Assembly: GCA_030390025.1 (NCBI GenBank)
Contig: CM059430.1
Span: forward strand, 98,580,001-98,644,000
Origin: Squalus acanthias
Lineage: Eukaryota
Length of the DNA stretch: 64,000 nt
Direction of reading: 5' to 3'
The notes beneath the pieces were generated by a model. That model saw nothing but the letters and a program-made list of their open reading frames with translations. It was not told where the DNA came from and searched no databases. Both the position numbers and the translations under genes were made by a program. Shown here piece after piece: positions 3,399-50,500 of the stretch (within the stretch, counting starts at the first letter, position 1; each line of letters begins with the position of its first letter).

Positions 3399-5170
3399 TT
3401 ACAAGAGCTTTCTCATACGCTTCCTACCGCTTCCATGTGGTGCATCCTGTGTGGCTTCAACAGAGGTAGAGGCAGGCTGCTCAGATCCCTGTCCTGACTG
3501 CTGAGATGCTTTTAGCTTATGCCCTCTGGCTTTTGAATCCCCTGAGGACCCGCCAAAGACTGCTCCACCTGCACTTGTGCAGGGGAAGACTCGGCCATCA
3601 ACAGGTGAGGCAACATGTCGGATGTTGGCTGAGTAGGGGAGCAACAGTGGGAGCGTTTGAGTGGAGTTCCCACTTCCATGGCCCCTTTCACCATCATCCC
3701 TCTCCTGGGCCAGCGCCACATCACTCCTACCACTCTGCTGCAGACCAGCTTGGTGGAGATCAGTGATGCGTTCTATGGCCACGGATTAGATACCTGTCAT
3801 CCTGTTTAATGCGGCAGACATGTTGGCATCCAAAGTCTGCATGGTCATGGTCATGGCCTGCATGGACTCATTTGAGAGCTGTGCTTGAAACTCCATGGAG
3901 ACGACCACTCTCTCCATGGCAGACATTCTCACAATTCCCTGCGCCACCAATCCACTAGCGATCGAGTTGGACTCCTCCATCCTCTCTGCTATTGTGCAGA
4001 GTGTGTGTGGCACATCTGTCAGTAACTGGCTAAGTTGCTGATGCAGCTCTAGCATTCTCCTTCTCAGCGATAGCCCCTGGGGTTTAGCATCTGTGTCCAG
4101 CTGAGCAGAGCTTGGAGAGGATTGTGCACCGTGACGTGGACTCTCCACAGCTGTTCGTCCCACCAGTGTCTGCTCGTGCTCACTTTGAGTTCTGAATCAC
4201 CAGGTGAAAACCCAACTAACTGTTTAAGTGGACTCACTGAAGTGCGAGTATTTGCACTGGTGCATGACTATGTCTGATGATGGTGCACCCTCAGAAGGAA
4301 TGAGGTCCTCTGAAGAATCATCCTCATGGGGAGCCTGTGACACTTGCTGTATGTGTGAAGGCCCTGGAAGACAAAAAAAGGATATAAATTACTCGTGGCA
4401 AAGTCACAATCTTGATAGCACCATAGTTGGTCTTCTCATAGTTCAATCATTAATGAAATGAAGTCAGCATATGTGTGTCAGAGATATTTTTAATTCTGTC
4501 ACCAGCTATTTGCAAGCTCCCTGTCTCTTCATTACTGATTGAGAGGGATGTAAATGTGCCACTTATCTCCAGGGCCTCTCCATCTGCATCTGCTATTTGT
4601 GCTGGGCCACCGCCAGCCCTCTCCTTCTGCCTCATGTTTTGTGCTCTCTTCTCCTACAGGGGCGAAAAAACAGACCTGTGTGTGAGTGAAGGTGAGGTAT
4701 TCTCCTGATGAATGCAGTGCATTTGGTGAGGGTGACTATAAGACAGATACATCACATTGCATAAGGATTGGGGTGAGTATCAACGGTGGATGGATAAAAT
4801 GGGGAAGTGATGAAGTGCATAGAAAGTTAAGGCTGGGTGCTTCTGAAATTTGAGTGGATGTGAGGAGTGATGTGATGGAGTATGGGTGGGGGCTTAAAGC
4901 ACAGGATGTAGGTGATTCAGCAAATGTACTCACTTTTCCTGGCCTGGTTGGGTCATTAAATCGCTTTCTGCACTGCATGCAAGACTGGGACACAATGCTT
5001 CTGCTGCTCACCCCCTCAGCTACTTCCAACCACGCCTTCCTGGTGAGAGCCACAGGTTTCTTCCCCCCATCGCTGGGAAAAATATGTCCCTCCTTCTCCT
5101 GACTGCACCCAGCAGTAATTCCAGGGATGCATCATTAAACCTGGGTGCTGCCCTTGCTCTCAGTGCATTC
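3399..5170 (-). pseudogene. Harbinger Myb/SANT-like (trihelix) accessory gene remnant with introns
   Basis: RAAPRFNDASLELLL...AWLEVAEGV...QCRKRFND; GTGAGT donor at 4933, AG acceptor at 4654, then EKRAQNMRQKERAGGG; convergent with the transposase. Confidence 0.85.
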
Positions 5171-5565
5171 ATCGTAAACACCTTCAGGGTCCTCCAATTT
5201 CCATTTCTACATTGTCCCTTTAAATAGAGTTGAGATCGCATCATGCCAGTGCACATTGCACCCACTGTGCAGCTTGGAGACGCGAAACCTGGAAGTTGGA
5301 AATTTATTGCTTCAATTCAATTGTGATCGCAGATTCTGACCCACTGACTTGACTTCCAGGTTTTGGCCCTGTAATTCCGCTACCCCTCCACCAATCAGAA
5401 GCTGCCTTCAGATTAATTTCGGCCCAAAACTCCCTGGTTTACATAAGTAGGTCATCAGCCTGACTCACAACTCCCTACCAGCAGAACTGGCTAGATGCAA
5501 TGGGGCATCCTGTTGCATGTCAACCCAGTATTCAGAGACCGGAACTCTTGCCTCCACTTGCCGGC

Positions 5566-5640
5566 ACTATCTGGTGTGGGGCTCGAATGCATAACCTTCT
5601 GACTCAGAGGTAGGAATGCTGTCACTAAGCCGAGGCTCAC
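5566..5640 (-). mobile_element. tRNA-derived SINE head fragment (Deu-type SINE)
   Basis: Reverse complement resembles the SINE head at 12518 (GGCTTAGTG...CTCTGAGTCAGAAGG...TTCGAGCCCC, A/B-box-like). Confidence 0.6.
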
Positions 5641-5772
5641 TCCTTTAAATGATGTCGAGAAGATTAATCTGGAACTCTGATTATTTAATAGATCTATAAA
5701 TAATTACTTACTTGCTCTACAGATAAGGCAGAATAAGGTTTCATAAGTTGTTTCAGGTATGCTAGGATATAG

Positions 5773-5985
5773 CACACTGGGGGCATAGGTCAAAACTGGT
5801 GAAAGGGAAATCTAGGATTGATATCAGAAGTAACTTTTTCATGCAAAAAGCAACCAACAATTGGTAATGGAGGTGAAACCCTCCGAGTCGTTTTAGTGGC
5901 AGGTGATATGACGGAGGGAGACTAAGCTTTTCTTTATTCTGAATGGATCAGCTAAGATGGCTGAGTGGCTTTCTAGACCTTAAAT
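5773..5985 (+). mobile_element. Old CR1 LINE 3' fragment
   Basis: Degenerate TRGH-KL-KG-RxDIRxNFFxQ C-terminal motif of CR1 ORF2. Confidence 0.6.
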
Positions 5986-6821
5986 TACCTTGTGACGTGG
6001 TTCAAGTTGTGGCAGTGTGGAATTCCTTTCCTCAATATATTATGGCTTCTGTATCTGATTGTTATTTCTAGAGTTTGAAGAGATGAGTAAATAAGTTATT
6101 TATGGAATGACTAATCACATCCTATGCTTAATTTTTATGTTGGTGTCCATCACAGTAATATTTTAATTTAATGTTTTAGCATTTTCTATTTTACCAACAA
6201 TTGATTTTCTGTAATTAGAATAAATACATATTGGACATTAATTCAGGATACAGTATTGAATATAGTCATCAATATGAGTTAGTGGAATGATCCTGGTAAC
6301 AAATTTACAGCTCCCATGAAGAAAAGTGAATAATCATTCAACAATCACAGAGCTGATGAAAGGACAAACTCCTCTGTGATGAAGGATTCTTTTTTAATGA
6401 ATGTTGCTGATTTTTTTCCAGTTTCTTCTAGATGATATTTTGAAAAGATACGCTGATAAGAACTACAAAATACACAAGTAACAGTACCAAATAGGCAGCA
6501 TGTCCAGTCGCTGCTCTAATCAATTATCTGCTTCATTCATATCAGAGGTCCCATAATGTGGGTTTAAAGGTACAGTGTAGTACTATTAGTGTGTTATATT
6601 GCACTACTAATTGCTATAATCAAAATAGTTTGTTTTAGCATGATACTGGGACCTATTTTTATGATGTTTTACCTGGGAAATGTATATGTTGAATTATGTA
6701 CCCTGTCACGCATCCACCGCTATTTTTATCTCAATGATGTCATATATGTGATGTCCTATTATGGTTATATATGTGAGAAGTCGCACAACACCAGGTTATA
6801 GTCCAACAGATTTATTTAAAA

Positions 6822-6859
6822 TTACAAGCTTTCGGAGCTGTTGCCCCTTCGTCAGGTAA
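6822..6859 (-). ncRNA. Minimal type I hammerhead ribozyme motif (Penelope pLTR, inverted copy)
   Basis: UUAC-CUGACGA-A-GGGGC AACA GCUCC-GAAA-GCUU-GUAA. Confidence 0.75.
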
Positions 6860-7053
6860 AGGTACAATGAGGGAATCTACAATATTACACAGTATATAAA
6901 CACAAAAAGCAATTTGTCTGCAGAGATACAATCTTTCGGGAGGCATTACGTCAAAGACACACCAGAGCACAGCCAAGACAATGAGATGGGTCACAGGGGG
7001 TCCAACGTGTCAAATCCTGCTGTCTGCAGTTGAGCTTTTAACCTTTTTTTTTC

Positions 7054-7639
7054 TCGCAGCCTTCAACATGTCATCGATGACGACGAACACCTTGCTAAGG
7101 CCATCCCCATGCCTCCACTACTCGCCTTCAAGCAGCCGCCTAACCTCAAAAGTACCATCGTTCGCAGCAAATTACCCAGCTGTCAGGAGAACAGCGACCA
7201 CGACACCACACAACCCTGCCACGGCAACCTCTGCAAGACATGCCAGATCATGGACACAGATACCATCATCACACGTGAGGACACTACCCACCAGGTACAT
7301 GGTACATACTCATGTGACTCGGCCAACGTTGTCTATCTGGTACGTTGCATGAAAGGATGCCCCAGAGCATGGTACATCGGCGAGACCATGCAGACACTGA
7401 GACAATGTATGAACGGACACCGCGCAACAATCGCCAGGCAGGATTGTTACCTCCCAGTCGGGGAACACTTCAGCAGTCAAGGACATTCAGCCTCGGATCT
7501 GCGGGTTAGCGTTCTCCAAGGCGGCCTTCGAGACACACGACAACGCAAAATCATCGAGCAGAAACTGATAACCAAGTTCCGCACTCATGAGGATGGCCTC
7601 AATAGGGATATCGGGTTCATGTCACGCTACAGAACGTGA
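7054..7639 (+). pseudogene. Penelope-like element ORF C-terminus: Cys-rich linker plus GIY-YIG endonuclease (RT missing)
   Basis: PPNLK, PCHGNLCKTC, VVYLVRC...WYIGET...MNGHR...VGEHF...GLNRD. Confidence 0.92.
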
Positions 7640-7901
7640 CTCGACATCGTTGTCTGTCTTTCCAGTTTAAAAAAAACACAAAAAAACCCCAAAAAAACAC
7701 AAAAAGGAAAAAAAAAAGGTTAAAAGCTCAACTGCAGACAGCAGGATTTGACACATCGGACCCCCTGTGACCCATCTCATTGTCTTGGCTGTGCTCTGGT
7801 GTGTCTTTGATGTAATGCCTCCCGAAAGATTGTATCTCTGCAGACAAATTGCTTTTTGTGTTTATATACTGTGTAATATTGTAGATTCCCTCACTGTACC
7901 T

Positions 7902-7939
7902 TTACCTGATGAAGGGGCAACAGCTCCGAAAGCTTGTAA
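7902..7939 (+). ncRNA. Minimal type I hammerhead ribozyme motif (Penelope pLTR)
   Basis: UUAC-CUGAUGA-A-GGGGC AACA GCUCC-GAAA-GCUU-GUAA; helix I UUAC/GUAA, 5-bp helix II. Confidence 0.8.
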
Positions 7940-8352
7940 TTTTAAATAAATCTGTTGGACTATAACCTGGTGTTGTGCGACTTCTCATTTTTGTCCACCC
8001 CAGTCCAACACCGGCATCTCTGCATCATGGTTATATATGTGATATCCCACTATACATTGATCAATGAACCTAGAACATAAGAACATAAGAAATAGGAGCA
8101 GGAGTAGGCCATATGGCCCCTCGAGCCTGCTCCGCCATTCAATAAGATCATGGCTGATCATCGACCTCAACTCCACTTTCCTGCCCGATCTCCATATCCC
8201 TTGATTCCCCTAGAGTCCAAAAATCTATCTATCTCAGCGTTGAAGACTCAGCATTCACAGCCCTCTGGGGCAGAGAATTCCAAAGATTCACAACCCTCTG
8301 ACTGAAGAAATTCCTCCTCATCTCGGTCTTAAATGGCCGACCCCTTATCCTG

Positions 8353-9987
8353 TGTAAGGGTTTGTGCCTGTGTCTCAGACGGTGCTGGTGCGAGGTTAGG
8401 CCTTCGTTGCCTAATACTATTGCTTGCTCTGGTCTCCGGCCAGCCTTTTTGCAATAAGCACCTGTGAGTGGTTCGACCCACTCGCCCTTACGGTTCTAAC
8501 ACTGGACTTAGGTGCAGGGAGCAGTAATGCAGAGAAAACTCAAATAGACCCGGTTGAATAGTACGAAATGGAAATTTTTATTGCATAGCGTCCAAAATCA
8601 TGAAGTACATGTCATAGGCGCAAATTAACGAGATTACAAGTATACATACATTCATAAAGCTTGGTCTATGGAAATGAAGAACGCATGGCACATCGTAAAA
8701 AGGGGAACACATTATACCTTAACCTTAATAAAACCACCCTCCCTTAACAATACCTACACTACGTCTAGATTTGTAGGATCGGGAAACCTGCTCACCACTC
8801 GTGTTACTTCGGAGAATTTTAAAGTGAGGCACTCGGCTCGTTTCGCTGCAGCGCCTGACTGTCACGTGTTTGGAAGGGTCTCTGTACCCCACTTGTTTAT
8901 CTTCGCTGCTGCGACAAGCAGGCCAGACTCTCTGTTGTCATGAAGAACTCGGTAGAACTCGGAAACGTTTGTAAAATTCAAAGAAGAGTCTTCCTGTGCT
9001 CGACACCGGTTGTCGGTAGACTTCAATGAAAAGTTCTTTATTATATTTTCAGGCGTGGTCGGGGTTTACTGACCGTGGCGGCACATGGATTCTTCTCCTC
9101 TTCTTCTCGTCTCGTCTCGTCTCTTCGGGCCTCCGGGTCCAGATACCGTTTACCGACACTCGGGATGGTGCACCCGGTCACTTGCCCTTGTCGGGGCGGC
9201 TCGTTCCGAGTGAGCTCCACCCAACATTCGAATAACCGACCAGTACGGCTAACAGTCAAGAGTCAACAAAGTCCAGAGAAAACACAAAAGGCTGCTCGTC
9301 CAGCAGAGCGATACCCGAGGATAAGGATAAGAGAATAAGAGAGCGATGGACATTTGTTCACTATAGTTATAGTGCTGTGTTCCCTTATCTCCCGCTCAAA
9401 TCTTAATGTTTGTCCTTTGTGTAATATTGGCGCTCAAAACTCCCAGCATGGGGCGATTCTTCTCTTTAACGGGTTTCGGTAGCACCTGAAACTGGCCAAC
9501 TATCCGTTAATGTTTTTCCCATTGTTGACCCAGCCAGGATGTGTATGAATCGTCTCCCTGACTGGTTTTGGGGGCCCCCGAATACTTGCTTAATCACCAG
9601 TCGATGTCTCTCTCATTGTAGAGCCGGGGGGGGTATTTGTGTATTGATGTGTCTGGATGGACCTTCGATTGCCCAGTACAATGGTCTTACTTGTGCATGG
9701 AAAACGATTCCAGCATTTATATCTTTGCTATTGTTCCAAATGCAAACGGGTTGCATCCTGTCTTTATCAGTGTTTACCGAGTATGATCCAATCTTATACT
9801 AAATGTATATTCGACGCCATTTTGTCTGCCCACTGTGTTTCTGGAAGCTTCTGCCACGATGCGCGGCGGCCATTTTACAGGCTTCTGTGTCCTTTATTAT
9901 CAGGACAGCATTTCGTTTAATAAAACTGATCAAACGAATCTGCTTCTCTCATGTTATTTTGAATCGCGATAATTGCGAAACTTTACA
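8353..9987. mobile_element. Solo LTR-like insertion (1635 bp) of an LTR retrotransposon or ERV
   Basis: TGTAAG...CTTTACA termini; perfect 4-bp TSD CCTG (8349-8352, 9988-9991); cleanly splits the CR1; no recognisable ORF. Confidence 0.8.
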
Positions 9988-10235
9988 CCTGTGACTATGC
10001 CCCCTAGTTCTAGACACTCCAGCCAGGGGAAACAACCTCTCAGCATCTACCCTGTCAATCCCCTTCAGAATCTTGTATGTTTCAATGAGATCACCTCTCA
10101 TTCTTCTAAACTCCAGAGAGTATAGGCCCATTCTACACAATCTCTCATCATAGGACAGCCCTCTCATCCCAGGAATCAATCTAGTGAACCTTCGTTGCAC
10201 CGCCTCCAAGGTAAGTATGTCCTTCCTTAGATAAA

Positions 10236-10999
10236 GGCCCGAAAATTAGACCTAATACGGGAGATTGCGCACTGTGTACTCTCGCGTATTAGGTCCCGAA
10301 GTGCTGGTTTCCTGCATGCACTGCGCATGCGCGGGAAACCGGCACTTCGGGTATTGCGAAGGGGGCGGTTCCTAAGTGAACCGCGTGCGCACTACAGGTT
10401 GCGCGCACGCAGCACACTTAGTTTTTTTTTCAGGTTTGAACGCGCAGGTAAGTGTTGAAGCTTTTACACATGAAGAAAGCAGGCGTAAGACCCCCTTTTA
10501 ACAAGGTAAGTAGTTAATTAAGTATTATTTAAAAAAATTTTCAACAGGTTTATCTTTTTTAGAGACTTTAAAGAAAGGTAAGTTTATTTTTATAACTTTT
10601 AAAAATAATTTAAATTTTTTCAAAAATTTAAATTTTTGTTTAAAGTGGTTAATTTATTTAACTATAGTTATTTTATTAATGTGATGGCTTTTTTTTAAAT
10701 TTAATTGAGGTTTAGCTGTTCTTTTGGGGGCTTGTTGTATTCATAGTTTTGACAGCTCTTCCTGTCAAAACTATGAATGAAAGATGGTGTGCTGCCATTG
10801 GCTCTAACTGGCCCACGTAATCCCAGAGGTCGCATCGCACTAACTGCGCCTCTGGGACACGCAACACTGCGCGCCGGCACCAGGGAGAGGCCCAGGAACT
10901 GAAGTTCGTGTGGGCCAAAATCATAAAGGCAGGCGCGGAGTGCGATATCGCGAGGGATCCTTACCCCCGCGGCAACCATCGAAGTACAATTTCTGGGCC
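10236..10999. mobile_element. Harbinger-type MITE family B, copy 1
   Basis: TIR GGCCCGAAAATT / AATTTCTGGGCC; 3-bp TSD AAA; near-identical to 54163-54928. Confidence 0.9.
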
Positions 11000-11351
11000 A
11001 AAGAGACCAAAACTGTGCACAGTACTCCAGGTGTGGTCTCACCAAGGCTCTGTACAATTGTAGCAAGACTTACTTACTCTTATACTCCAACTCCCTTGCA
11101 ATAAAGGCCAACATGCCATTTGCTTTCCTTATTGCTTGCTGTACCTGCATGCTGGCTTTCTGTGTTTCTTGCATGATGACACCCAAATCTCTCTGAACAC
11201 CAACATTTGAAAGTTTCTCACCATTTAAAAATATTCTGTTTTTCTATTCTTCCTATCAAAGTGAATAACCTCACATTTCCCTACATTATACTCCATCTGC
11301 CACCTTACTACTCACTCACTTAGTCTATCTATATCCCTTTGCAGACTCCTT

Positions 11352-12244
11352 GGGGTAGAAATTAGGTCGCGCCCCATTTGGGGCGCAAATATCGTCTGGA
11401 CGCAAATATTAGCGCCTGGCGCTAATTATCGGCACTGACAGGAAACTTCACTTTTACCGCCCCGGGAGGTGAGTGGAGCGCTAAAGCAGGCGCTGCACAC
11501 CTGTCTTAAGGCGCAAAGGCCAAGGAGTGAGGCGCTAACTCAGAGCGCTGGCGAAGCTCATGTAATGTCAGTCAGCAATGAAACACACACACAATGGCAC
11601 GGGCCAGTTCTTAAAGGGGATGGTTAATCTTGCTTTCCATCCACATCCTGTTCATTGCAGCCTTGAATCTCGGCCTGGAGAGACTTGCACATCAAGTGTG
11701 CTGGAAAGAACAATGGAGAGTACCAGGCAAAGAGCTCAGAGTGCAGCTCCCACAGTCTCTGCTAAATCGATACAAGGAAGGGCAAATCAAAATGAACCTG
11801 CAAAGTGCTGCTCAGTACCCAAAACTCCTTCACACAACGTTGAATCTCTCCAGAAGTCTCTCCCTCTCTCTCTCAGAATGCGTAGTTCAAAAATGCCACC
11901 GACAATAAAAGCCAGGAAGAGGCCCCCTTTAAATAGCGCCCTCCCCAGCCCCACAGCGATTGATAGCGTTCCAGTCTTCTGGTCGTTGGATGCGCCAGGC
12001 GGTAAGGCAGGGGGCGCCACTCAATTTCCGCTCCGGGGCGCCACAAGGGCGTTGCACCATGGAATGACATCACAATCTGCGCGCGCAGGTGGTCGCAGCG
12101 GTAAGTTTTAGCGCCGCCGCACAATCTCAAGTTAAGTTCTCGAGCGGCGCAAACATCGCTGCGCACGGGCGTTAGCGGCTTTGCGCCCCATTAGCGCCCT
12201 CTTAAGGCGCTAACGGGAGGCGCAACCAAGTGAATTTTTACCCC
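11352..12244. mobile_element. Harbinger-type non-autonomous element family C, copy 1
   Basis: TIR GGGGTAGAAATT / AATTTTTACCCC; 3-bp TSD CTT; homologous to 59727-60622. Confidence 0.9.
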
Positions 12245-12727
12245 CTTGTGTTCTCCTCACAGCTTACTGTTCCACCTAGCTTTGTATCATCAGAAAACTT
12301 GGATACATTACACTCGGTCCCTTCATCTAGGTCATTGATATAGAGTGTAAATAGCTGAGGCCCCAACACTGATCCTTGCGGCACCCCACTAGTTACAGCC
12401 TGCCAACCTGAAAAAGATCCGGTAATCCATACTCTCTATTTTCTGTCCGTTAACCAATCCTCTAGCCAACCTTAACTTCAACAATCTTGCTTAACACGGT
12501 TATATGAAGTTAAGGTTTCAGCCTTGGCTCAGTGGTAGGACTCTCGCCTCTGAATCAGAAGGGTGTGGGCTCAAACTCCACTCCAATATCTAGGCTAACA
12601 CTTCAGTGCAATACTGAGGGAGTGCTGCCATGTAAGAGGTGCCACCTTCCTGATGAGACGTTAAACCGAGGCTCTTTTCGGGTGGATGTAAAACATTCTG
12701 TCGCACTATTTGAAAAAGAGCAGGGGA

Positions 12728-13176
12728 GTACACCCGGTGTCCTGACCAACATTTATCCTTCAACCAATATCACTATAACACATTATCTGAACATGTATTT
12801 TTTTTAATTTATTCCTGGGATGTGGGCATCGCTGGCAAGGTCAGCATTTATTGCCCATCCCTGATTGCCCTTGAGAAGGTGGTGGTGAGCCACCTTCTTG
12901 AACCGCTGCAGTCCGTGTGGTGAAGGTACTCCCACTGTGTTATTAAGGAGGGTACACCCGGTGTCCTGACCAACATTTATCCTTCAACCAATATCTCTAT
13001 AACACATTATCTGAACATGTATTTTTTTTTTATTTATTCCTGGGATGTGGGCATCGCTGGCAAGGTCAGCATTTATTGCCCATCCCTGATTGCCCTTGAG
13101 AAGGTGGTGGTGAGCCACCTTCTTGAACCGCTGCAGTCCGTGTGGTGAAGGTACTCCCACTGTGTTATTAAGGAGG
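12728..13176 (+). repeat. Tandem duplication, about 224-bp unit x2
   Basis: Units begin GTACACCCGGTGTCC at 12728 and 12952; they span the SINE/LINE junction. Confidence 0.92.
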
Positions 13177-13404
13177 GTGTTCCAGGATTTTGACTCAGCG
13201 ACGATGAAGGATCGGCAATATATTTCCAAGTCAGGATGGTGTGTGACTTGGAGGGGAACTTGGAGGTGGTGGTGTTCCCATGCGCCTGCTGCCCTTGTCC
13301 TTCTAGGTGGAAGAGGTCGCGGGTTTGGGAGGTGCTGCCGAAGAAGCCTTGGCGAGTTGCTGCAGTGTATCTTGTAGATGGTACACACTGCAGCCGCGGT
13401 GCGC
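13019..13404 (-). mobile_element. CR1-clade LINE family 2, 3' end
   Basis: Matches the 3' end at 34220-34590 (IYKxHCSNSPRLLRQHLP; GGGATGGGCAATAAATGC; A tail). Confidence 0.88.
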
Positions 13405-13999
13405 CATTGCTGTTTGTAGCACCTACTGCGAGTCCCTACATTATGGCAGTGACTACTCTTCAAAAGTATTTCATTGGTTGTGAAGTGATTTCATATAACG
13501 GAAAACTGAAGCAGCAGGAAACAGTCAACATGGCCATTTACCTTCAGAATGCTAACGGCAAGTTAACTCATTTGAGTAATGTCAGCCTGTAGTGGCACCG
13601 GAGGAATATACTTGCCGGCAGCAGCCCTTCTGTGTTTTGATATGTAAGTTTACAGCAAAGATTAAACTTGGTCTATCCGTGATGTGTCAAGATCAATCTT
13701 TACACTTGGGGACTTTCAATTGGCTGTAAATCTAGCATAATTATCCAAATTAGGGCCAATAAACATATTCTAATCTCCAAATTATAATGTGTGAGCTGCA
13801 AGAAAGACATCAAATGGCTAATAAATAGGATTATAACTTATTGGAGCAAAAAGTAAGAAAAGATAAGCTAGATTACTTTGAGAAAAATAAAATTAAAGTT
13901 AAAACAAAATAAAATAATATAAAATAAAACAGAGACCTATAGGGATGACAAAGTGAACAAAGGTAAAATGCTTGCCTGGAAATTCCATGGAGATCCTCC

Positions 14000-14860
14000 A
14001 GCAGAAGATAATGGATTCCCGGGAGAAATGTCTAAAGATAGCCATTCATGCTGGTGATGGAGGGGTCGATATTGAGTCCAGTGACAGAAGCAATAGTCAA
14101 GTGAACTGATAGATGCTGTCGAGCTTGTTAAGTGTTGTTGTGACTGCATCCATCCAGCCGAATGGTGAGTATTCCATCATAACCTGCCTTAAGCCTTGTA
14201 GATGGTTTGAGGCGTTAGGAGGTGACCCACCCTTTGCAGAGTTCCTGGCCTCTGCCCTGCTCATGTAGCCATGTTGTTGATACTGCTGGTTCAGTTAAGG
14301 TTCTGGTCAATGCCAAGATGGTGGTGGGGGAACTTGGCAATGGTAGAGTTATTGAAGATCATAGGGAGATGGCTGGCCTTTCTTTTGTTTGAATCGGTCA
14401 TTGCGTGGCGCGAATATTACCTGCCACATGTTTGCCCAAGCCTCGTTGTTATCCAGGTCCTGCTCTAGGCTGGCGTGAGCTGCTTCATTATCGGAGGATT
14501 GAGCTGAACATTGTAGAATCATCAGTGAATAGTACCACTCCTCACCTTATGATGGAGGGAAGGTCATTGATGAAACAGCTGAAGATGGTTGCATCATGGA
14601 CCCTTCTCTAAGGAGCTCCTAAAGCAATGTCCTGGGGTAATGATGATTGGACTCCAACCACCACAACCATCTTTCTTTGTTTCTGATATGACTCTAGCAT
14701 TAGAGGGTTTTTTCTTCGAGCCTCATTGATCTTATTGTATCTTAGGTCCCTTGGTGCTATACTCGTTTGAATGCTTTCTTGATGTCGATGGCAGCTACTC
14801 TCATCTTTCCTCTGGCATTTGGCTCTTGTGTCGCTGTCTGGATCATGTTGGAGCTGAGTA
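14000..14860 (-). mobile_element. Degraded CR1-clade family 2 RT fragment
   Basis: Reverse-strand similarity to 28970-29060 and 33500-34200 (e.g. GATGGAGGGAAGGTCATTGATGAA). Confidence 0.75.
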
Positions 14861-15237
14861 GTTTGGTGATTTTACATTTTTAAGTGATTTTACATTTTTA
14901 CTTCCAATAATTAGTACAAATGAGATGCCTCTATCTTTTCACCTTTCTTCAGATACAATTAGTTACCATTTTCACATCTTTTCAGTGAAATGGAGTAATA
15001 AAAAAGTTTCAGTCCCCAAACATTACTGCTTCCATGAGTGAGTTATGGAACTCATGTTGATATTTAACTCCATGTTTCTACAGATTGATCAAAAAATAGA
15101 AAATGCCCTTAAATGTTCTATGAGCCTATTCCCTTTTCAATTATATCATTCTAATCTCTGCCTCAATTGCTACTTAAAGTAAAAAAAAATGAGAAGTCGC
15201 ACAACACCAGGTTATAGTCCAACAGATTTATTTAAAA

Positions 15238-15279
15238 TGACAAGCTTTCGGAGCTATCGATCGCCCCTTCTTCAGGTAA
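15238..15279 (-). ncRNA. Minimal hammerhead ribozyme motif (inverted arm)
   Basis: CUGAAGA-A-GGGGC GAUCGAUA GCUCC-GAAA-GCUU; one helix I mismatch. Confidence 0.65.
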
Positions 15280-15296
15280 AGTTCTTCATAGTAACT

Positions 15297-15338
15297 TTAC
15301 CTGAAGAAGGGGCGATCGATAGCTCCGAAAGCTTGTAA
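15297..15338 (+). ncRNA. Minimal hammerhead ribozyme motif
   Basis: UUAC-CUGAAGA-A-GGGGC GAUCGAUA GCUCC-GAAA-GCUU-GUAA. Confidence 0.75.
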
Positions 15339-16509
15339 TTTTAAATAAATCTGTTGGACTATAACCTGGTGTTGTGCGACTTCTCATTTTTGTCCACCCC
15401 GGTCCAACGCCGGCATCTCCGCATCATGACTACTTAAAGTAAAGCATGCTACATCCTAAATCATCCTCTTCTAACTTGCACTTTTGCTCTTCTCGTGATA
15501 ATCCTGAGTCTATGCTCCCTTGTTACTGATTCATCAACAAGTAGATTCATTAAATAAAATACTGCTCTTTGCTGATTTAATTCAATACTACGGATATTAA
15601 ATGTAGTATTACTGCCTGGGTCTGCAGCCATCGGAGAGGAAAGGTAGTTGCATTGTATAAGCCATTATAGAATTTGCAAGGACTATTAAGGGGCAATCTC
15701 GCAAGGAACATAGTGCTGGTGTGCAGCCTCACAAGTGCCGTGTGTGGGTCAGAAAATAGGGGCTATAGTGTTACTTCCTATCTGCACTCGCATCTAACTC
15801 CACACCAAGCCTTTGCAAAATTACCCCTTAGAGTCTTCACTACACCTAGGTTTCAATATCTGCCAACTTTTATATGGAGCATCTGTGCCTGTCTAAGCAA
15901 GAAGCAGCTTCTAATGGCTATGTAAACAGCCTAACAGAAGCTGTGCTCTTTTGAACTCCAGCAACATCAGTTATCATTACACAAACTTAATCTGTTTAAG
16001 TACGCACAGATGATGTGTTCATCATGTGCAAAAATTAAAGAATACGAAGAGCTGGAGTAAGATAAATGGCCCATGTTCCCATTCCCTGTGCTGTTTTAAT
16101 TCAACAGAAGGCTGAATTTCCTCTCAGCAACCTTTTTTCAACCTCTCTTTCATGGCAGTTTTAGGCTTTTAGGACAAAGGACATTTTTCATCTACACTTG
16201 TGCATCAGAAAGGGTCAGCACCAAGGGCAGGAGGAATAGAAGATATATGACAAGAACCCATGGGATATGATTTGTATTTGAAGAGTGGACTGACTTGGTA
16301 ACTCCCAAGTGACCAAGTCCAACATGAGTTAATCAGTGCCACAAGTGGAACAATCATAGGATAACTTCACCAATCATCTGCTCCCAGGAAGGCGCTGCTC
16401 TCAAAGAGGAGTACAGGTTGGAGATGTGGCTCTCTTTCAACGCAGCACTTTGCTGGGAGAGTGGGCTCAGTCAATTTACTCCTGTATCTCGTGGCACCTA
16501 TCGTTATTC

Positions 16510-17256
16510 TGTAGACACTAGTTTCCGCTCGATTGCTTTGGTTTATTTGCCGCAATTCCCCTGTTATCGGCGTACCCACCGCGAAAGATCGCAGAGTTTT
16601 AAGCGCAAATTGTGTTCAGCGCAATTTGCGTTTCCGCGATCTTTTGCGCTAGTTTTTAAAACATTGCGCTAGAAGCCAGCCCCACCCACTAAACTGGCCA
16701 CGCCACCAGCGTGAATTCATCACCATTGGGAGTTTCCGCTAATTGTACTCGTTTGTGGGCCTTCGAGGAGGCTCCAAAAATTAAGCTGGAACTTTTGGAA
16801 GCAAGGACACTAACAGGTACGTTTTGAAGGGTTTTGAATGAAAACATTTTTTAAATTTACTAAGGAATTTGCTACTGTACCCCAATCTAACTAGAAAATA
16901 GTTTTGTATATTTTTTAAAAGTCATTTTCAGTCATTTAAAATTGGGTTACTCGCAGGTGGTGGATCGACACTGTGACTTAAAATGCTTATTTTTTGTGAT
17001 AATCCTATTTTCAGCTGTATTAATCAAACTTTACCAAATATATCAAGAAATATTTTTTAAGGAAAATTATTTTTTACAAATTACAGTTTAAAACACTGCC
17101 CGATTGCGTTGGTTCATGGCAGATTTTACGTTTGGCAATATGCAAATGAGTTTGAGCTTAAACTCGGGGGAAAAAAACACTTTTCATAGCGGGCATAATT
17201 TTGAACGCAATTTGCACCGGAATCGCCGATTGCGCCCAAAGTGGAAATGCTACCCC
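16510..17256. mobile_element. Probable Harbinger-type MITE, left TIR degraded
   Basis: CpG-rich arms with an AT-rich core; right end GGAAATGCTACCCC. Confidence 0.55.
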
Positions 17257-19342
17257 TGTTAGATTAATAATTAAATTGAGAAAAATTTCACGTAATTGTT
17301 AAATGTTGAAAGTGAACTAAATTGATGCATGGATTACTCCATCGATGTCACTCACAGTACCACGTCTTCTTAATTGTGACCACATGATGCATAAGAAAAC
17401 TATTTCATGTCGATGATTTCAGCATAAGTAGGATAGTCATCTGGATCCGAGCACTTAAAAACACTTACTTGCTCCACCTAACATATATGTCAACAATACA
17501 GTCCTGATCCATATCCCAGAGTGGATAAAGAGTATAAAATGCTAAAATGTATTTGCCTTCTGTATTAGTTTTGGATGTCGGCGCTCCCATTGCTTCCTTA
17601 TTAAATTATCTTAATATTCTTGAATAAATTCTCCACGGACCAAGTACTTTATATCTACTTTCAAAGCTCTTGGGCCCCTAATAAATGTAAACCTATTGAA
17701 ATAAGATTGTTATTCACACCACATAATAATATGCAAAATATTAGAGTATCTATAATGTTCTCTCATGTATAGTGTACATTAATTACAGCTCCAATCAAGT
17801 GGAAAAATTATACAAAATGCCTCTTCTATCACATACCTTTTGGATGACTCCCACTGACATCCTTATAAAAAGGGCCTGGCGTACTATGTTATTGTAAAGT
17901 ATTGCTTTAGTTGGCAGTTCTTCTTGTTTTCATTCACAGGTTGTATTCTAGAAAGCTAATGAGGTTGCACTGAATGGTGGAATTTAGCAAACGGATTAGA
18001 GAAAAAGCTTCTTGTCTCATCTCAAAGATTGGTGGCACCCCAGGGAAACCAGATACGGGTATGTGCGCAGGCCATTATCAGAGTGTCTATGCATTTTGAA
18101 ATGTTGAATCCATTTAGAATGACTGAAGTTGGTCCTTTAATGATACTGGAATTTTTGAAAAGTCTGAGATGTTACCTTCTGTTTGGGCAGAATAACATCA
18201 CATTAAAATTGATGCCTTACAGCCCCAAACATATTCCAGCCTAAAACTCCAGGAACAGATCAGTTGACAAGATAATGAGTTCATGCTATTGAATAACTCC
18301 CTAGCTATTTTATCAACATATTTCTCCTTTTAATTTTCATTTACAAGTTTGCAATTTGCAGTATTTTTATCCATGCTGTCAAGACAGGTACTCACAATCA
18401 CAGACATGACAACACCAATGAGACAGGTGAATGTTTGTGATGCGGCCAATAAAAATAAGCTAATTAGTTTAAAACACTTAATTAACTATAAATTCTAACT
18501 TCATTTGAATTGCTTCTGTTTTGTCTTCACTTTCTCATTTAATCTTCAGATACTCTGGGGGTGCTACAGAATGCTGGTTTAATAAAGCTGTCAAAATGAT
18601 GAAACTGTGATGTTAACATATGTAAGTCACCATGGCTGTGATAGTCTGACTTCTGAACTTTGAGATACTTTAGATACGTGACAGTAAGTGCAGTTACTCC
18701 CTGCTCAGGCAGGAGCACAGCAGATTCTGATGCAGATTCAGGACCTCTTAACTGACATAAGTTGATGCCCAATCAAAAGTTAATTGGAATTCTAACCACT
18801 TCAATAAGGAATAATGAGGTGCTTTACCAATAGTTTAGTGACCGTGAAAGACACAAAATGGAGACCAAGGCGAAAGTGCCAAGATGACTGCAATTTGTAA
18901 AGGCAGAATTGTTTATTTGGGTGAAATAATTCATCAAAACCAACAGTCTTTAGACTTAAATTGAATATCAAAATAACTATGGACTTTGACATCTCAACAA
19001 AGCATCAAAAATTCCATAAAATTCACAGGATTGCTATCAAGGGATTTATGACTTTAAACGGGTGGTAACAAAGAAAGTGGAACGTGATTTTAAAAAAGGA
19101 CCATCACGCAATAAAGAAGCCACTTTAGTATTGCATGAAGTTCTGGGCACCTCATTATAGGAAGGGTATTAGAGGCACAGAAATGATTCACTTGAATAAT
19201 AAACAAGAAAGCTCAAATAATAAAGAAAGGGAAAACCCTTACTTGTCATTGGATCCTCCACAGGGCTTTCGTGGGGTTGAACTATACAAGCTAGAGGTTC
19301 TGTAACACCAATCAAGAAGTCACCTCAGCCATGGAAATCAAA

Positions 19343-19470
19343 GTCATGATGCGGAGATGCCGGTGTTGGACTGGGGTGGACAAAAGTGAGAAGTCGCACA
19401 ACACCAGGTTATAGTCCAACAGCTTTATTTGAAATCACAAGCTTTCGGAGCGCTGCTCCTTCGTCAGGTG
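19343..19470 (-). mobile_element. Short Penelope pLTR-end insertion
   Basis: Homologous to 7900-8028; flanked by direct repeat GAAATCAAA. Confidence 0.88.
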
Positions 19471-19471
19471 A
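19435..19471 (-). ncRNA. Minimal hammerhead ribozyme motif
   Basis: UCAC-CUGACGA-A-GGAGC AGC GCUCC-GAAA-GCUU-GUGA; compensatory helix I change relative to the other copies. Confidence 0.8.
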
Positions 19472-20177
19472 AATCAAATGCTGAGTCCTTCTACTTCCAC
19501 CCTCTACCATCCCTGATCTTGTTGAAGGGCTGTATACATCTGCTTCTTCTGGCACAGACCACGCCAATGCCCGGGTAGACTCTTGCATCTTTAATGATAT
19601 TATGCAATTGGATAAAGCATACTTGGCAGAGAGATTGCCCGTTTAGTCAATCTGCTCACCAGATTGAGGGAAAACCAGCAAGTTTCCTCCGTGCTGCTTA
19701 ATGACATTTTTAGTCAGAGCTCTCATTAATCTGCTGAAGCCCTTCCCATGACAAGTCGGATGCAGGCATCCAATTTTGAGGATAAGGGGACCTCCAATCT
19801 GAAGTACCATCCTGTGGAGTATCCTTCCAGTGCCGTGTCCTCCCAAAGCTAGGACAAATGTACATAGAGTTTGTTAAGATATGCATTGATTAAACTGATT
19901 TTCTTATTTCATTCATTTACTAGTGCATCATTTGTTCCAGTATGGAACAGTATTACTTTTGCAATGCAGACATTGTATAGTTGTATATTTGTATAGTTGT
20001 ATATTTGTATATTATACAATGACCATTTGTATGTTTTTACAGCATTTTCTACTTATTTACACACTAGCTCAGGTTATGATGAAAGTTACTGCCCCGCACT
20101 GTAAACTGCTTTTCTCAGCACAAGTTGATATCTACTTTACTTGTAATATTCTGGGGTGTTTTGCAGCAAAAGATTAT

Positions 20178-45545: not shown

Positions 45546-46805
45546 AATCATAGAATCATAGAAATTTACAGCACAGAAGGAGGCCATTTGGCCCATCATG
45601 TCTGTTCCGGCCGAAAAACAGCTATCCAGCCTAATCCTACTTTCCAGCTCTTGGTCCATAGCCCTGTATGCCACGGCACCTCAAGTGCACATCCAACCAC
45701 TATTTAAATGCGTTGGGGGTTTCTGCCTCTACCACCCTTTCAGGCAGTGAGTTCCAGACCCCCACCACCCTCTGGGTGGAAAAAGTTCTCCTCAACTCCC
45801 CTCTAATCCTTCTACCAATTACTTTAAATTTATGCCCCCTGGTTGTTGACCCCTCTGCTAAGGGAAATAGGTCCTTCCTATCCACTCTATCTAGGCCCCT
45901 CATAATTTTATGCACCTCAATTACATCTCCCCTCAGCCTCCTCTGTTCCAAAGAAAACAACCCCAGCCTATCCAATCTTTCCTCATAGCTAAAATTCTCC
46001 AGTCCTGGCAACATCTCGTAAATCTCCTCTGTACCCTCTCTAGTGCAATCACATCTTTCCTGTAGTGTGGTGACCAGAACTGTAGGCAGTACTCTAGCTG
46101 TGGCCTAACTAGTGTTTTATACAGTTCAAGCATAACCTCGCTGCTCTTATATTCTATGCCTCAGCTAATAAAGGAAAGTATCCTGTATGCCTTCTTAACC
46201 ACTTTATCTACCTGTCCTGCTACCTTTGGGGATCTGTGGCCATGCACTCCAAGGTCCCTCTGTTCACCTACACTTCTCAGTAACCTACCATTTATTGTGT
46301 ATTTCCTTGCCTTGTTAGCCCTCCCCAAATGCATTACCTCACACTTCTCCAGATTGAATTCCATTTGTCACTTTTCTGCCCACCTGACCAGTCCATCGAT
46401 ATCTTCCTGCAGCCTACAGCTTTCTTCCTCACTATCAACCACAAGGCCAATTTTTGTATCATCTGCAAACTTCTTAATCATGCCCCCTATATTGAAGTCT
46501 AAATCATTGATATATACCACAAAACGTAAGGGACCTAGTACTGAGCCCTGCGGAACCCCACTGGAAACAGCCTTCCAGTCACACAAACACCCGTCAACCA
46601 TTACCCTTTGCTTCCTGCCAATGAGCCAATTTTGGATCCAACTTTCTACTTTCCCTTGGATCCCATGGGCTTTTACTTTTCTGATCAGTTTGTCATGTGG
46701 GACCTTGTCAAAAGCCTTGCTAAAATTCATGTAGACTGCATCAAACACGCTACATTCATCGACCCTCCTCATTACCATTACCGCCTCAAAAAATTGAATC
46801 AAGTA
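45546..46805 (-). mobile_element. CR1 LINE RT fragment
   Basis: [26 protein letters not shown]; (ATCATAGA)n tail. Confidence 0.93.
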
Positions 46806-47547
46806 ATGAGACAGGGTTAATTATTAATCTTATAGTAAAGGATTTTTAAAAATCAGCAAAGAATGACCAAGAAATTGATAAAGAGGGAGAAAATAGATTA
46901 TGAGAGTAAGCTAGCAAGAAATATAAAACAGATTGGAAGAGCTTCAATATGTCTGTAAAAAGGAAGAGATTAGTGAAAGTAAATATGGGTCACTTAGAGC
47001 CAGAGACAGGAGAAATTATAATAGGGAATAAGGAAATGGCAGAGGCGTTAAACAAAAACTTTGTATATGGTATATATCTTCACAGTAGAAGACACAATTA
47101 ATGAAACTAAAAGCCGACAAATCCCCTGGACCTGATGGTTTTAAAAGAGATGGCTGCAGAGATAGTGGATGCATTGGTTTTGATCTTCCAGAATTCCCTA
47201 GATTCTAGAATGGTCCCCATGGATTGGAAGGTAGCGAATGTAACCCTGCTGTTCAAGAAAGGAGGGAGAGAGAAAACGGAACTATAGGCCAGTTAGTCTG
47301 ACATCAGTAGTAGGGAAAATGTTGGAATCCATTATTAAGGAAGTGGTAACAGGGCACTTAGAAAATCATAATATGATTAGGCAGAGTCAACACGGTTTTA
47401 TGAAATGGAAATCATGTTTGACAAATCTATTAGAGTATTTTGAGGGTGTAACTAGCAGGGAGGATAAGGGGGATCCAGCAGAATGTAGTATATTTGGATT
47501 TTCAAAAGGCATTTGATAAAGTGCCACACAAGAGGTTGTTACACAAG

Positions 47548-50500
47548 TATGTAAAAAGAAAAAGATTAGTGAAAAGGTCCCTTACAGTCAGAAATGGGAG
47601 AATTTATAATGGAGAACAAGGAAATTAGGAGCAATTAAACAAATACTTTGGTTCTGTCTTCACGGAAGAGGACACAAATAACTTCCCAGAAATGCTAGGT
47701 AACCAAGGGTCTACTGAGAAGGAGGAATCTGTGTTCACTATGGAGAAGGACGATGTAGGCATAGAAATCAGGCAGGGGGATTGTGATATACTTGAACAAA
47801 TTAGTATTGAGAAGGAGGAGGTACTAGTGGTTTTAGCGGGCTTAAAAGTGGATAAATCCCCAGGCCCAGACGAGATGTATCCCAGGCTGCTGTGTGAGGC
47901 AAGGGAGGGGATTGCAGGGGCTCTGACACAAATTTTCAGATCCTCTCTGGCCACAGGGGAGGTGCCAGAGGACTGGAGGACAGCTAATGTAGTCCCATTA
48001 TTCAAGAAGGGTAGTAAGGATAAACCAGGGAATTACAGGCCAGTGAGCCTAACATCAGTGGTAGGGAAATTATTGGAAAAAATTCTGAGGGACAGAATTA
48101 GTCTCCACTTGGAGAGGCAGGGATTAATCAAGAATAGTCAGCATGACTTTGTCAGGGGGAGATCATGTCTAACCAATTTGATTGAATTTTTCGAGGGGGT
48201 GACTAGGTGTGTGGATGAGGGTAGTGCAGTTGATGTAGTCTACATGGACCTCAGTAAGGCTTTTGACAAAGTCCCGCATGGGAGATTGGTGAAGAAGGTA
48301 AGAGCCCATGGGATCCAGGGCAATTTGGCACATTGGATCCAAAATTGACTTAGTGGCAGGAGGCAGAGGGTGATGATCGAAGGTTGTTTTTGTGACTAGA
48401 AGCCTGTGTCCAGTGGTGTACCGCAGGGATCGGTGCTGGGTCCTTTGCTGTTTGTAGTGTACATTAATGATTTAGATATGAATGTAGGAGGTATGATCAG
48501 TAAGTTGTCAGATGACACGAAAATTGGTGGAGTGGTAAATTGCGAGGAGGGAAGCCTCAGGCTACAGGACAATATAGATGGGTTGGTTAGATGGGAAGAA
48601 CAGTGGCAAATGGAATTTAACCCTGAAAAGTGTGAGGTGATGCATTTTGGGAGGACTAACAAGGCAAGGGAATACACAATGAATGGTAGGACCCTAGGAA
48701 GGACAGAGGATCAGAGGGCCCTGGGTGTGCATATACATAGATCCCTGAAGGCAGCAGGACAGGTAGATAAGGTGGTTAAAAAGGCATATGGGATACTTGC
48801 CTTCATTAGCCGAGGCATAGAATATAAGAGCAGTGAGGTTATGATGGAGCTGTACAAAACGCTAGTTAGGCCACAGCTGGAATACTGTGTGCAGTTCTGG
48901 TCGCCACACTATAGGAAGGATGTGATTGCATTGGAGAGGGTGCAGAGGAGATTCACCAGGATGTTACCTGGGCTGGAGCGCTTCAGCTATGAAGAGAGAC
49001 TGGACAGGCTGGGGTTGTTTTCCTTGGAGCAGAGAAGGCTGAGGAGGGACCTGATTGAGGTGTACAAAATTATGAGGGGCATAGATAGGGTAGATAGAAA
49101 GGAACTTTTCCCCTTAGTAGAGGGGTCAATAACCAGGGGACATAGTTTCAAGATAAGGGGCAGGAGGTTTAGAGGGGATTTGAGGAAAAACTTTTTCACC
49201 CAGAGGGTGGTTGGAATCTGGAACTCACTACCTGAAAGGGTGGTAGAGGCAGGAACCCTCACAACATTCAAGAAGCATTCAGATGAGCACTTGAAACGCC
49301 ATAGCATACAAGGCTATGGATCAAGTGCTGGAAAATGGGATTAGAATAGATAGGGCTTGATGGCCGGCGCGGACACGATATGCCGAAGGGCCTCTTTCTG
49401 TGCTGTATAACTCTATGACTCTAATTAAAGGAAATTAGCATTAGTAACAAAATAGTGCTGGGGAAATTAATGGGACTGAAAGCTGATAAATCCCCAGGGC
49501 CTGATAATCTGCATCCCAGAGTACTAAAAGAGGTAGCCATGGAAATAGTGGATGCATTGGTTGTCATCTTCCAAAATTCTATAGATTATGGAACAGTTCC
49601 TGCTGATTGGAGGGTGGCAAATGTAACCCCACTATTTAAAAAAGGAGGGAGAGAGAAAACAGGGAACTACAGACTGGTTAGCCTAACATCAGTAGTAGGG
49701 AAAATGCTAGAGGATAAAGGATGTGATAACAGGACACTTAGAAAATATCAACGGGATTAGACAAAGTCAACATGGATTTATGAAAGGGAAATCGTGTTTG
49801 ACAAACCTACTGGAGTTTTTTGAGGATGTAACTGGTAGAATAGATAAGGGAGAAGCAGTGGATGTGGTGTATTTGGATTTTCAGAAAACCTTTGATAAAG
49901 TCCCACATAAGAGGTTAGTGTGCAAAATTAAAGCACATGGGATTGGGGGTAATATACTGGCATGGATTGAAAATTGGTTAATAGACAGGAAACAGAGAGG
50001 GTAGGAATAAATGGGACTTTTTCGGGGTGGCAGGCGGTGACTAGTGGGGTACCGCAGGGATCAGTGCTTGAGCCCCAGCTATTCACAATATATATCAATG
50101 ATTTGCATGAGGGAACCAAATGTAATATTTCCAAGTTTGCTGACGACACGAAACTAGGTGGGATTGTGAGTTGTGAGGAGGATGCAAAGAGGCTTCAAGG
50201 CGATTTAGACAAGTTGAGTGAGTGGGCAAATACATGGCAGATGCAGTATAATGTGGATAAATGTAAAGTTATCCACTTCGGTAGGAAAAACAGAAAGGCA
50301 GAGTATTATTTAAATGGTGATAGATTGGGAAATGTTGATGTACAAAGGGACCTGGGTTTCCTTGTACACCAGTCACTGAAAACAAACATGCAGGTGCAAC
50401 AGGCAGTTAGGAAGGCAAATGGTATGTTGGCCTTCATTGCAAGAGGATTTGAGTACAGGAGCAAGAATGTCTTACTACAGTTATACAGGGCCTTGGTGAG

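What the first reader, a model, noticed from the sequence alone, without database searches (positions are those of the whole stretch)
6822..19471. Five minimal hammerhead ribozymes with covariation in a Penelope family
Seen: five copies (6822-6859 -, 7902-7939 +, 15238-15279 -, 15297-15338 +, 19435-19471 -) keep CUGANGA (N = C, U or A) and GAAA invariant. The helix II loop varies (AACA / GAUCGAUA / AGC), a G-U pair becomes A-U, and helix I swaps UUAC/GUAA for UCAC/GUGA. Helix III is reduced to the palindrome AAGCUU. Established: Penelope-like elements carry minimal type I hammerheads, proposed to cleave as dimers through a palindromic helix III. Inference: these are selected ribozymes cutting at UU^G (7935/7936), a UU site with an extra A after the core, which is atypical.
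Basis: partly seen in the sequence, partly recalled or inferred. Interest (0 to 1): 0.7.

Follow-up and report, generated by a model that had tools for sequence, protein, structure and literature searches.

The report
Penelope-element minimal hammerheads, known kind
The five motifs are three insertions of one very abundant jumping gene (Penelope type) carrying the stripped-down self-cutting RNA motif already described for such elements; it is predicted to cut only as a pair, and the inserted copies suggest it is usually copied uncut.

Summary
The five motifs are present at the stated coordinates, but they are three insertions. Two are inverted arm pairs inside 16- and 14-nt target duplications. 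They are the pLTR hammerhead of a Neptune-like Penelope element with about 100,000 pLTR copies in this genome.

Pairing is supported genome-wide: at the variable helix I pair, 96.4% of 70,431 copies are Watson-Crick, 3.0% U-G and 0.6% C-A; helix II is paired in 99.4% of cells. This rests on about one helix I switch, so it is not many independent events.

The 'atypical' extra A is a published hallmark of these motifs. U17 is the majority state (112 of 124 copies); C17 subfamilies coexist. Cleavage is untested.

By-products: many short copies begin at a predicted transcription start 7 nt before the core, often with an extra G. Copy starts are about 2-2.5-fold enriched at the predicted cut, partly through microhomology. 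In 14 of 76 two-arm insertions the arms come from different subfamilies, implying two RNA templates.

The scan has reported this motif many times on other DNA (438 notes). Verdict: new member of a known kind.

The parts
6761..6776 (.). Left target-site duplication of insertion 1 (16 nt, overlaps the arm end by microhomology)
6774..7052 (-). Inverted arm of insertion 1 (3' UTR end plus pLTR without tail)
6822..6859 (-). Minimal hammerhead, U-A helix I, loop AACA, U17; predicted cut 6826/6825
7050..7639 (+). 5'-truncated ORF end: CX4CxxC linker plus GIY-YIG-type endonuclease (WYIGET); 89% identical to the L066 ORF, which has a weak Pfam GIY-YIG hit
   Evidence: (no Pfam hit itself)
7863..7870 (+). 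TATA-like box; an initiator-like TCACTG lies 30 nt downstream (predicted promoter)
   Evidence: function inferred
7902..7939 (+). Minimal hammerhead, U-A helix I, loop AACA, U17; predicted cut 7935/7936
7945..7950 (+). AATAAA 9 nt after the predicted cut (possible polyadenylation signal)
   Evidence: function inferred
7988..8029 (+). 42-nt PLE tail present only on the direct arm; its last bases are the ORF start ATG in the full-length tandem copy L061
8027..8042 (.). Right target-site duplication of insertion 1
15170..15183 (.). Left target-site duplication of insertion 2 (14 nt)
15238..15279 (-). Minimal hammerhead on the inverted arm (15185-15283); loop GAUCGAUA; helix I mismatch GUCA
15297..15338 (+). 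Minimal hammerhead on the direct arm (about 15291-15431); predicted cut 15334/15335
15430..15443 (.). Right target-site duplication of insertion 2
19343..19472 (-). Insertion 3: solo short pLTR copy with tail, bounded by a 9-nt duplication (19334-19342, 19470-19478)
19435..19471 (-). Minimal hammerhead, C-G helix I, loop AGC, U17; predicted cut 19439/19438

Best explanation
The motifs are the minimal type I hammerhead in the pseudo-LTR of a young, very high-copy Neptune-like Penelope retrotransposon, likely kept by selection on the source elements and predicted to cut slowly after U17 only when two copies pair through the AGCU palindrome, while most insertions were likely copied from uncut RNA. 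Shown: the five window copies are arms of three dead insertions. A full-length tandem copy has hammerhead, RT-endonuclease ORF, hammerhead at 3,136-nt spacing. The positions that vary between subfamilies are those hammerhead chemistry tolerates. Inferred: transcription starts at an initiator just before helix I, so one hammerhead sits at the capped 5' end and a second before AAUAAA at the 3' end. Helix III forms between these two, or between two RNAs held by a protein dimer. Reverse transcription primes at the tail about 100 nt downstream and usually runs through the uncut ribozyme to the RNA 5' end.
For: Element anatomy: RT Pfam hit E 2e-9 and tandem L061; linker motif, tail, inverted arms, TSD mode 12-13 nt. 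Copy number: 100,328 exact hits of a 22-mer, 0 for the reversed control. Helix I pair counts: C-G 42,963, U-A 24,906, U-G 2,134, C-A 428; 15,608 C-A expected if the sides were independent. Helix II 99.4% of cells paired, with changes G-U/A-U and one C-G to U-A; covariation score 0.178 vs 0.143 shuffled, 0 of 500 (62 distinct rows). In 124 copies anchored downstream, subfamily-level variation is at N7, H17, loop II (3-9 nt), 10.3 and helix I; 0 of 15 core positions vary vs 9 of 22 others, my classification, p=0.005. The 3' UTR upstream varies freely. A monomer cannot close helix III over a 2-nt loop; predicted self-duplex -6.5 kcal/mol with U17, -3.9 with C17. Uncut templates: 45 of 163 copies start 4-9 nt before C3, 21 of them at exactly -7, vs 7 of 163 at the cut (0..+2). 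Literature: PMC4209133 (monomer inactive, dimers weak); PMC11167929 (protein-assisted HHR, uncut RNA is the main substrate).
Against: No cleavage data; the public runs are contigs and cannot show RNA ends. Covariation is phylogenetically thin: 2 of 9 pairs have a double change (48 of 500 shuffles reach that), and the ORF tree shows one helix I switch plus a small C-A pair of rows. The 69 nt downstream are just as conserved (4 variable columns), so conservation alone is not hammerhead-specific. U17 is a less favoured site than GUC/GUA and lets A14-U17 extend the duplex, which could lock an inactive fold. The cut-site start rate is the same in C17-type and U17 subfamilies (0.44% vs 0.42%; denominators approximate). 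The start-site peak did not appear in long-leader subfamilies (128 arms, few short).
Confidence: 0.8

Rival explanations
1. The motif is a decayed ribozyme: the U17 subfamilies (about 86-90% of copies) no longer cut, and the fold is kept as a protein-binding or promoter element at the RNA 5' end.
For: C17 rows lie near the midpoint of the ORF tree and U17 rows occur on both arms, as expected from repeated CpG change (unrooted). Most templates were uncut. HHR mutants do not affect insertion in vitro (PMC11167929). Naiad PLEs thrive without canonical HHRs (PMC8557442 passages).
Against: Core positions stay invariant across U17 subfamilies while N7 takes C, G and A. The excess of starts at the cut is present in U17 subfamilies (225 vs 90, 114, 92), and partner arms end at 0/+1 there too (11 of 56 U17 rows).
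Confidence: 0.25
2. The hammerhead cuts efficiently in vivo and releases a unit-length 3,136-nt RNA that circularises and templates the long insertions (the model of Cervera and De la Pena).
For: Two hammerheads flank exactly one unit in tandem copy L061. Long copies run from the tail through the hammerhead into the ORF end, which a circle would allow. There is a faint start excess at the cut.
Against: Clean starts at the cut are about 0.5% of arms (225 of about 43,000), whereas starts just upstream of the intact motif dominate the short copies. Read-through RNA or a template jump explains long copies equally well. No RNA evidence.
Confidence: 0.15
3. Chance resemblance to a hammerhead in a repeat end.
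For: No Rfam hit; the core pattern is short.
Against: Exact position and anatomy of the published PLE min-HHR; pairing-preserving changes genome-wide.
Confidence: 0.02

Closest known systems
Minimal hammerheads (min-HHR) of metazoan Penelope-like elements, including fish Xena, Poseidon and Neptune (Cervera and De la Pena 2014, PMC4209133; results, discussion and part of methods read, figures not seen)
   Same: Type I, core CUGANGA/GAAA, extra nucleotide between 9 and 10.1, G10.1-C11.1, palindromic 15.2-16.2, short helix I, located in pLTRs, mostly solo or opposite-strand pairs, many variant families per genome.
   Different: Helix II is 5 bp (7-8 bp in the schistosome examples). U17 dominates here; I could not check its frequency in that paper. 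About 70,000 intact motifs vs 4,000-9,000 reported for coelacanth and Xenopus.
PAc, Poseidon element of Anolis carolinensis (Frangieh et al. 2024, PMC11167929; parts 1-2 of 4 read)
   Same: Tandem pLTR-ORF, tail between two RT start sites, both strands cut and extended, predicted protein dimer, uncut RNA as main template.
   Different: The PAc ORF starts inside the hammerhead; here the ATG lies about 90 nt after the cut, at the tail end. This element has the Zn-finger-like linker of Neptune/Nematis.
Dimer-cleaving small hammerhead variants of Lunse, Weinberg and Breaker (cited in PMC6765202; the paper itself was not held, only its title and the review passage were seen)
   Same: Reduced stem III, PLE association, dimer cleavage.
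   Different: Could not be compared at sequence level.
Animal non-LTR retrozymes (PMC7229834 passages; bioRxiv 10.64898/2026.07.22.740005 part 1 and passages)
   Same: Type I hammerhead on a mobile repeat related to PLE pLTRs.
   Different: Retrozymes are non-coding tandem repeats, mostly with canonical HHRs; these are dispersed truncated copies of a coding PLE.

Membership tests
PLE minimal hammerhead (min-HHR) | Core CUGANGA ... GAAA ... UH | tested here: met
   core positions at least 92% conserved in 124 copies (5' ones lowered by truncation); H17 U 112, C 12
PLE minimal hammerhead (min-HHR) | Unpaired nucleotide between 9 and 10.1; G10.1-C11.1 pair | tested here: met
   A in 123 of 124; G10.1 in 124 of 124; C11.1 in 118 of 124; hallmark per PMC4209133
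PLE minimal hammerhead (min-HHR) | Helices I and II supported by pairing-preserving variation | tested here: met
   few independent events
PLE minimal hammerhead (min-HHR) | No monomer helix III; palindromic 15.2-16.2 | tested here: met
   AGCU in 123 of 124 at each variable position; self-duplex predicted
PLE minimal hammerhead (min-HHR) | Located in the pLTR of a PLE, sense to the ORF | tested here: met
PLE minimal hammerhead (min-HHR) | Self-cleavage as a dimer | not testable with these tools
   Only an indirect, weak genomic footprint
Neptune-clade EN+ PLE | Single ORF with RT and C-terminal GIY-YIG | tested here: met
   RVT_1 E 2.2e-9 (L061); GIY-YIG E 7.6e-4, below Pfam's cutoff (L066); WYIGET motif
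Neptune-clade EN+ PLE | CX2-5CxxC linker between RT and EN (shared with Nematis) | tested here: met
   CX4CxxC in the window ORF and L061; definition in PMC8557442
Neptune-clade EN+ PLE | RT phylogeny placing it in Neptune rather than Nematis | not tested
   No reference set aligned
Neptune-clade EN+ PLE | Partial tandems, inverted 5'-truncated copy, 30-40 bp tail | tested here: met
   (tail 42 nt)
Non-LTR retrozyme | Non-coding tandem units each with a hammerhead | tested here: not met
   Window copies are dispersed, TSD-bounded fragments of a coding element

The most novel reading that the evidence does not exclude
The 100,000 copies record how the ribozyme is used. The hammerhead sits at the capped 5' end of the RNA (TATA+30, extra G). 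Each two-arm insertion is made by a protein dimer holding two separate RNAs, as shown by arms from different subfamilies. That complex brings two half-active hammerheads together, and a small fraction of insertions come from RNAs already cut at UU^G, an in-vivo footprint of U17 cleavage.
Probability: 0.3. Interest if true: 0.6.

Novelty: new member of a known kind. Interest (0 to 1): 0.3.

Why it matters
The motif itself is a 2014 finding. The open question is what PLE hammerheads do. This family offers natural C17/U17, loop and helix variants in one young lineage, a predicted RNA start directly before the ribozyme, and counts suggesting two RNA templates per insertion. These make the dimer and protein-assisted models directly testable with the element's own sequences.

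Tried and rejected
Rfam scan: no hammerhead model hits. Pfam on the window ORF: no hit. Lunse et al. was not held by DOI or PMC id. Supplement searches for U17-type motifs: nothing in PMC4209133 (2 files searched, 1 not searchable) or PMC11167929; only chance coding-sequence hits in PMC8557442. Figures are not held, so the frequency of U17 in published PLE hammerheads stays open. Paper searches for U17 in natural hammerheads, for two templates or twin priming in PLEs and for shark Neptune elements (0 papers) found no direct report; these cover open-access text only. RNA runs (4 of 24 laid) are contigs and show no ends, strand or level. Age ranking of U17 vs C17 subfamilies was uninformative: 0.1-0.9% divergence in the larger classes, sample biased to exact matches. 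Prediction that C17 subfamilies leave more cut-site starts: not met. Prediction that the start peak follows TATA+30 in long-leader subfamilies: inconclusive. Double-arm listings are dominated by microhomology joints: 11 of 50 at the AAGCTT palindrome and 4 of 50 exactly at the cut; 7 of 50 at 0/+1 and about 12 of 50 at +4 to +6; both tallied by eye. One search's arm comparison and one class had regex faults and were redone. No covariance model was built; pair counting and whole-genome counts were used instead.
Full report
Observation. The five motifs are at the stated places. They belong to three insertions. 6774-8029 is an inverted arm plus a direct arm carrying the end of an ORF, inside a 16-nt duplication. 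15185-15431 is a short fold-back inside a 14-nt duplication. 19343-19472 is a solo copy with a 9-nt duplication. Copy 15238- has a helix I mismatch (GUCA). The window alone therefore gives three related sequences and no real covariation test.

What carries them. The ORF end at about 7050-7639 has a CX4CxxC linker and a GIY-YIG-type motif. It has no Pfam hit itself but is 89% identical to the L066 ORF, which has a weak GIY-YIG hit. Locus L061 holds an inverted arm, then hammerhead, an 848-residue RT-containing frame (RVT_1 E 2.2e-9; this copy leaves the frame inside the endonuclease), and a second hammerhead 3,136 nt after the first. The ATG is the last bases of the 42-nt tail. The linker places it with Neptune or Nematis (PMC8557442 passages); I did not run an RT phylogeny. 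A 22-mer of the pLTR occurs 100,328 times in the 3.71-Gb genome, the reversed control 0 times. Earlier scan notes call this genome shark-like; I did not test that.

Is the structure selected? Whole-genome counts at the variable helix I pair are C-G 42,963, U-A 24,906, U-G 2,134 and C-A 428 of 70,431; independence would give 15,608 C-A. On 62 distinct natural rows helix II is 99.4% paired and helix I 89.1%, the latter lowered by truncated copies. The covariation score exceeds 500 of 500 shuffles, but only 2 of 9 pairs carry a double change (one truncated row's list was left out and window copy 19435 added). A tree of 23 ORF ends shows one helix I switch and two C-A rows grouped together, so this is about one compensatory event amplified. 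In 124 copies chosen by downstream sequence only, the varying sites are N7, H17, loop II, the 10.3 wobble and helix I; no core site varies at subfamily level (0 of 15 vs 9 of 22, my classification, p=0.005). The upstream UTR varies freely, but the downstream 69 nt are as conserved as the core, so the pattern of variation, not the conservation, is the evidence.

The two 'atypical' features. The extra A is a listed hallmark of PLE min-HHRs (PMC4209133). U17 is in 112 of 124 copies while other CpG sites have changed in only a few percent, so it is the source state. C17 subfamilies are real (at least 7,644 copies), lie near the tree midpoint, and may be ancestral; the tree is unrooted. NUU is cleavable but is not among the fastest triplets (PMC3138052 passages). 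U17 extends the predicted self-duplex from 4 to 6 pairs (-3.9 to -6.5 kcal/mol), which could help pairing or lock it.

What the copies say about the RNA. Of 163 tail-anchored copies, 45 start 4-9 nt before C3 (21 at exactly -7) and 7 start at the cut (0..+2). In the main subfamily class 53 of 270 arms start at -7, which is 30 nt after a TATA-like box at an initiator-like TCACTT (includes motif-selected loci). Where the upstream is non-genomic, the preceding base is G in 25 of 46 arms, though the template has C or T; some of these G can come from the partner arm. Genome-wide the count is CG 164 vs CA 97. This fits a reverse-transcribed cap (inference). Long-leader subfamilies showed no such peak. 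Drosophila Penelope has a TATA-less internal promoter in the pLTR (PMC2377424 passages), so a start in the pLTR is known but the TATA reading is mine. Most templates thus contained the uncut hammerhead, as found in vitro for PAc.

Cleavage footprint: weak. Clean starts number 90 at -3, 225 at the cut, 114 at +2 and 92 at +4. Of 30 examined at the cut, 8 could be helix I microhomology and 2 are local changes; the corrected excess is about 1.6-fold. When one arm starts at the cut, the partner ends at 0/+1 in 17 of 84 rows (two insertions counted twice). At the -3 control no partner of 26 ends at -4..-2, but that control excludes palindrome joints. C17-type and U17 subfamilies have equal rates. 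Short double-arm joints are spread over several positions. I rate this suggestive only.

Two templates. Among 76 duplication-bounded two-arm insertions, 14 have arms with different loop II lengths matching separate abundant variants (8 of 40 in the unbiased set; 12 of 33 short vs 2 of 43 long insertions). Arms differ at only 0.9% of invariant sites. Two RNAs per event is the simplest reading and fits the predicted PAc dimer. Gene conversion is not excluded, and subfamily mix differs between short and long sets. The window's own pairs are same-subfamily.

Mechanism. Shown: anatomy, copy number, tolerated variation. Inferred: transcription from the upstream pLTR starts at helix I; a unit RNA carries one hammerhead at each end; helix III forms only between two hammerheads; cutting is slow and probably protein-assisted; priming at the tail usually copies uncut RNA. 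The genomic fragments in this window are most likely inert.

Novelty and verdict. Same as the published PLE min-HHR in every testable feature; new only as a family instance with large counts. The scan holds 438 notes with these words in at least 31 genomes, including the start-site, footprint and two-template ideas on other DNA. New member of a known kind, interest 0.3.

Noticed in passing
G000:C1:67.67-67.72 Mb (L331-L340): About 22 tail-bearing PLE fragments in a same-strand array at 1.5-3.6 kb spacing; the one examined lacks the hammerhead. Looks like a satellite that captured a PLE end.
   Followed up: no
L182, L308, L325: PLE copies inserted into the TATA-like stretch of another PLE copy, consistent with AT-rich or self targeting.
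   Followed up: no
L433/L434, L452/L453, L460: Perfect fold-backs in which both arms end at the predicted start site and are joined by a central CG, as two cap-copied ends would give.
   Followed up: partly
L464-L520 junctions: Joints near the cut often carry AT-rich filler made of short templated repeats of the arm ends, resembling end-joining repair.
   Followed up: no
L061-L068, L071: Flanks of these PLE insertions often lie in long ORFs that look like CR1-type LINE sequence (recalled resemblance, not tested).
   Followed up: no
window 30600-64000: Dense direct and inverted repeats of another element class, including a 762-nt inverted pair at 46015-48959.
   Followed up: no
L079, L062:3682, L283, L041: A minor subfamily has CCGACGA in place of CUGACGA (U4C), in L079 and L062 with a U-A fifth pair in helix II; a natural core variant that has propagated.
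   Followed up: no
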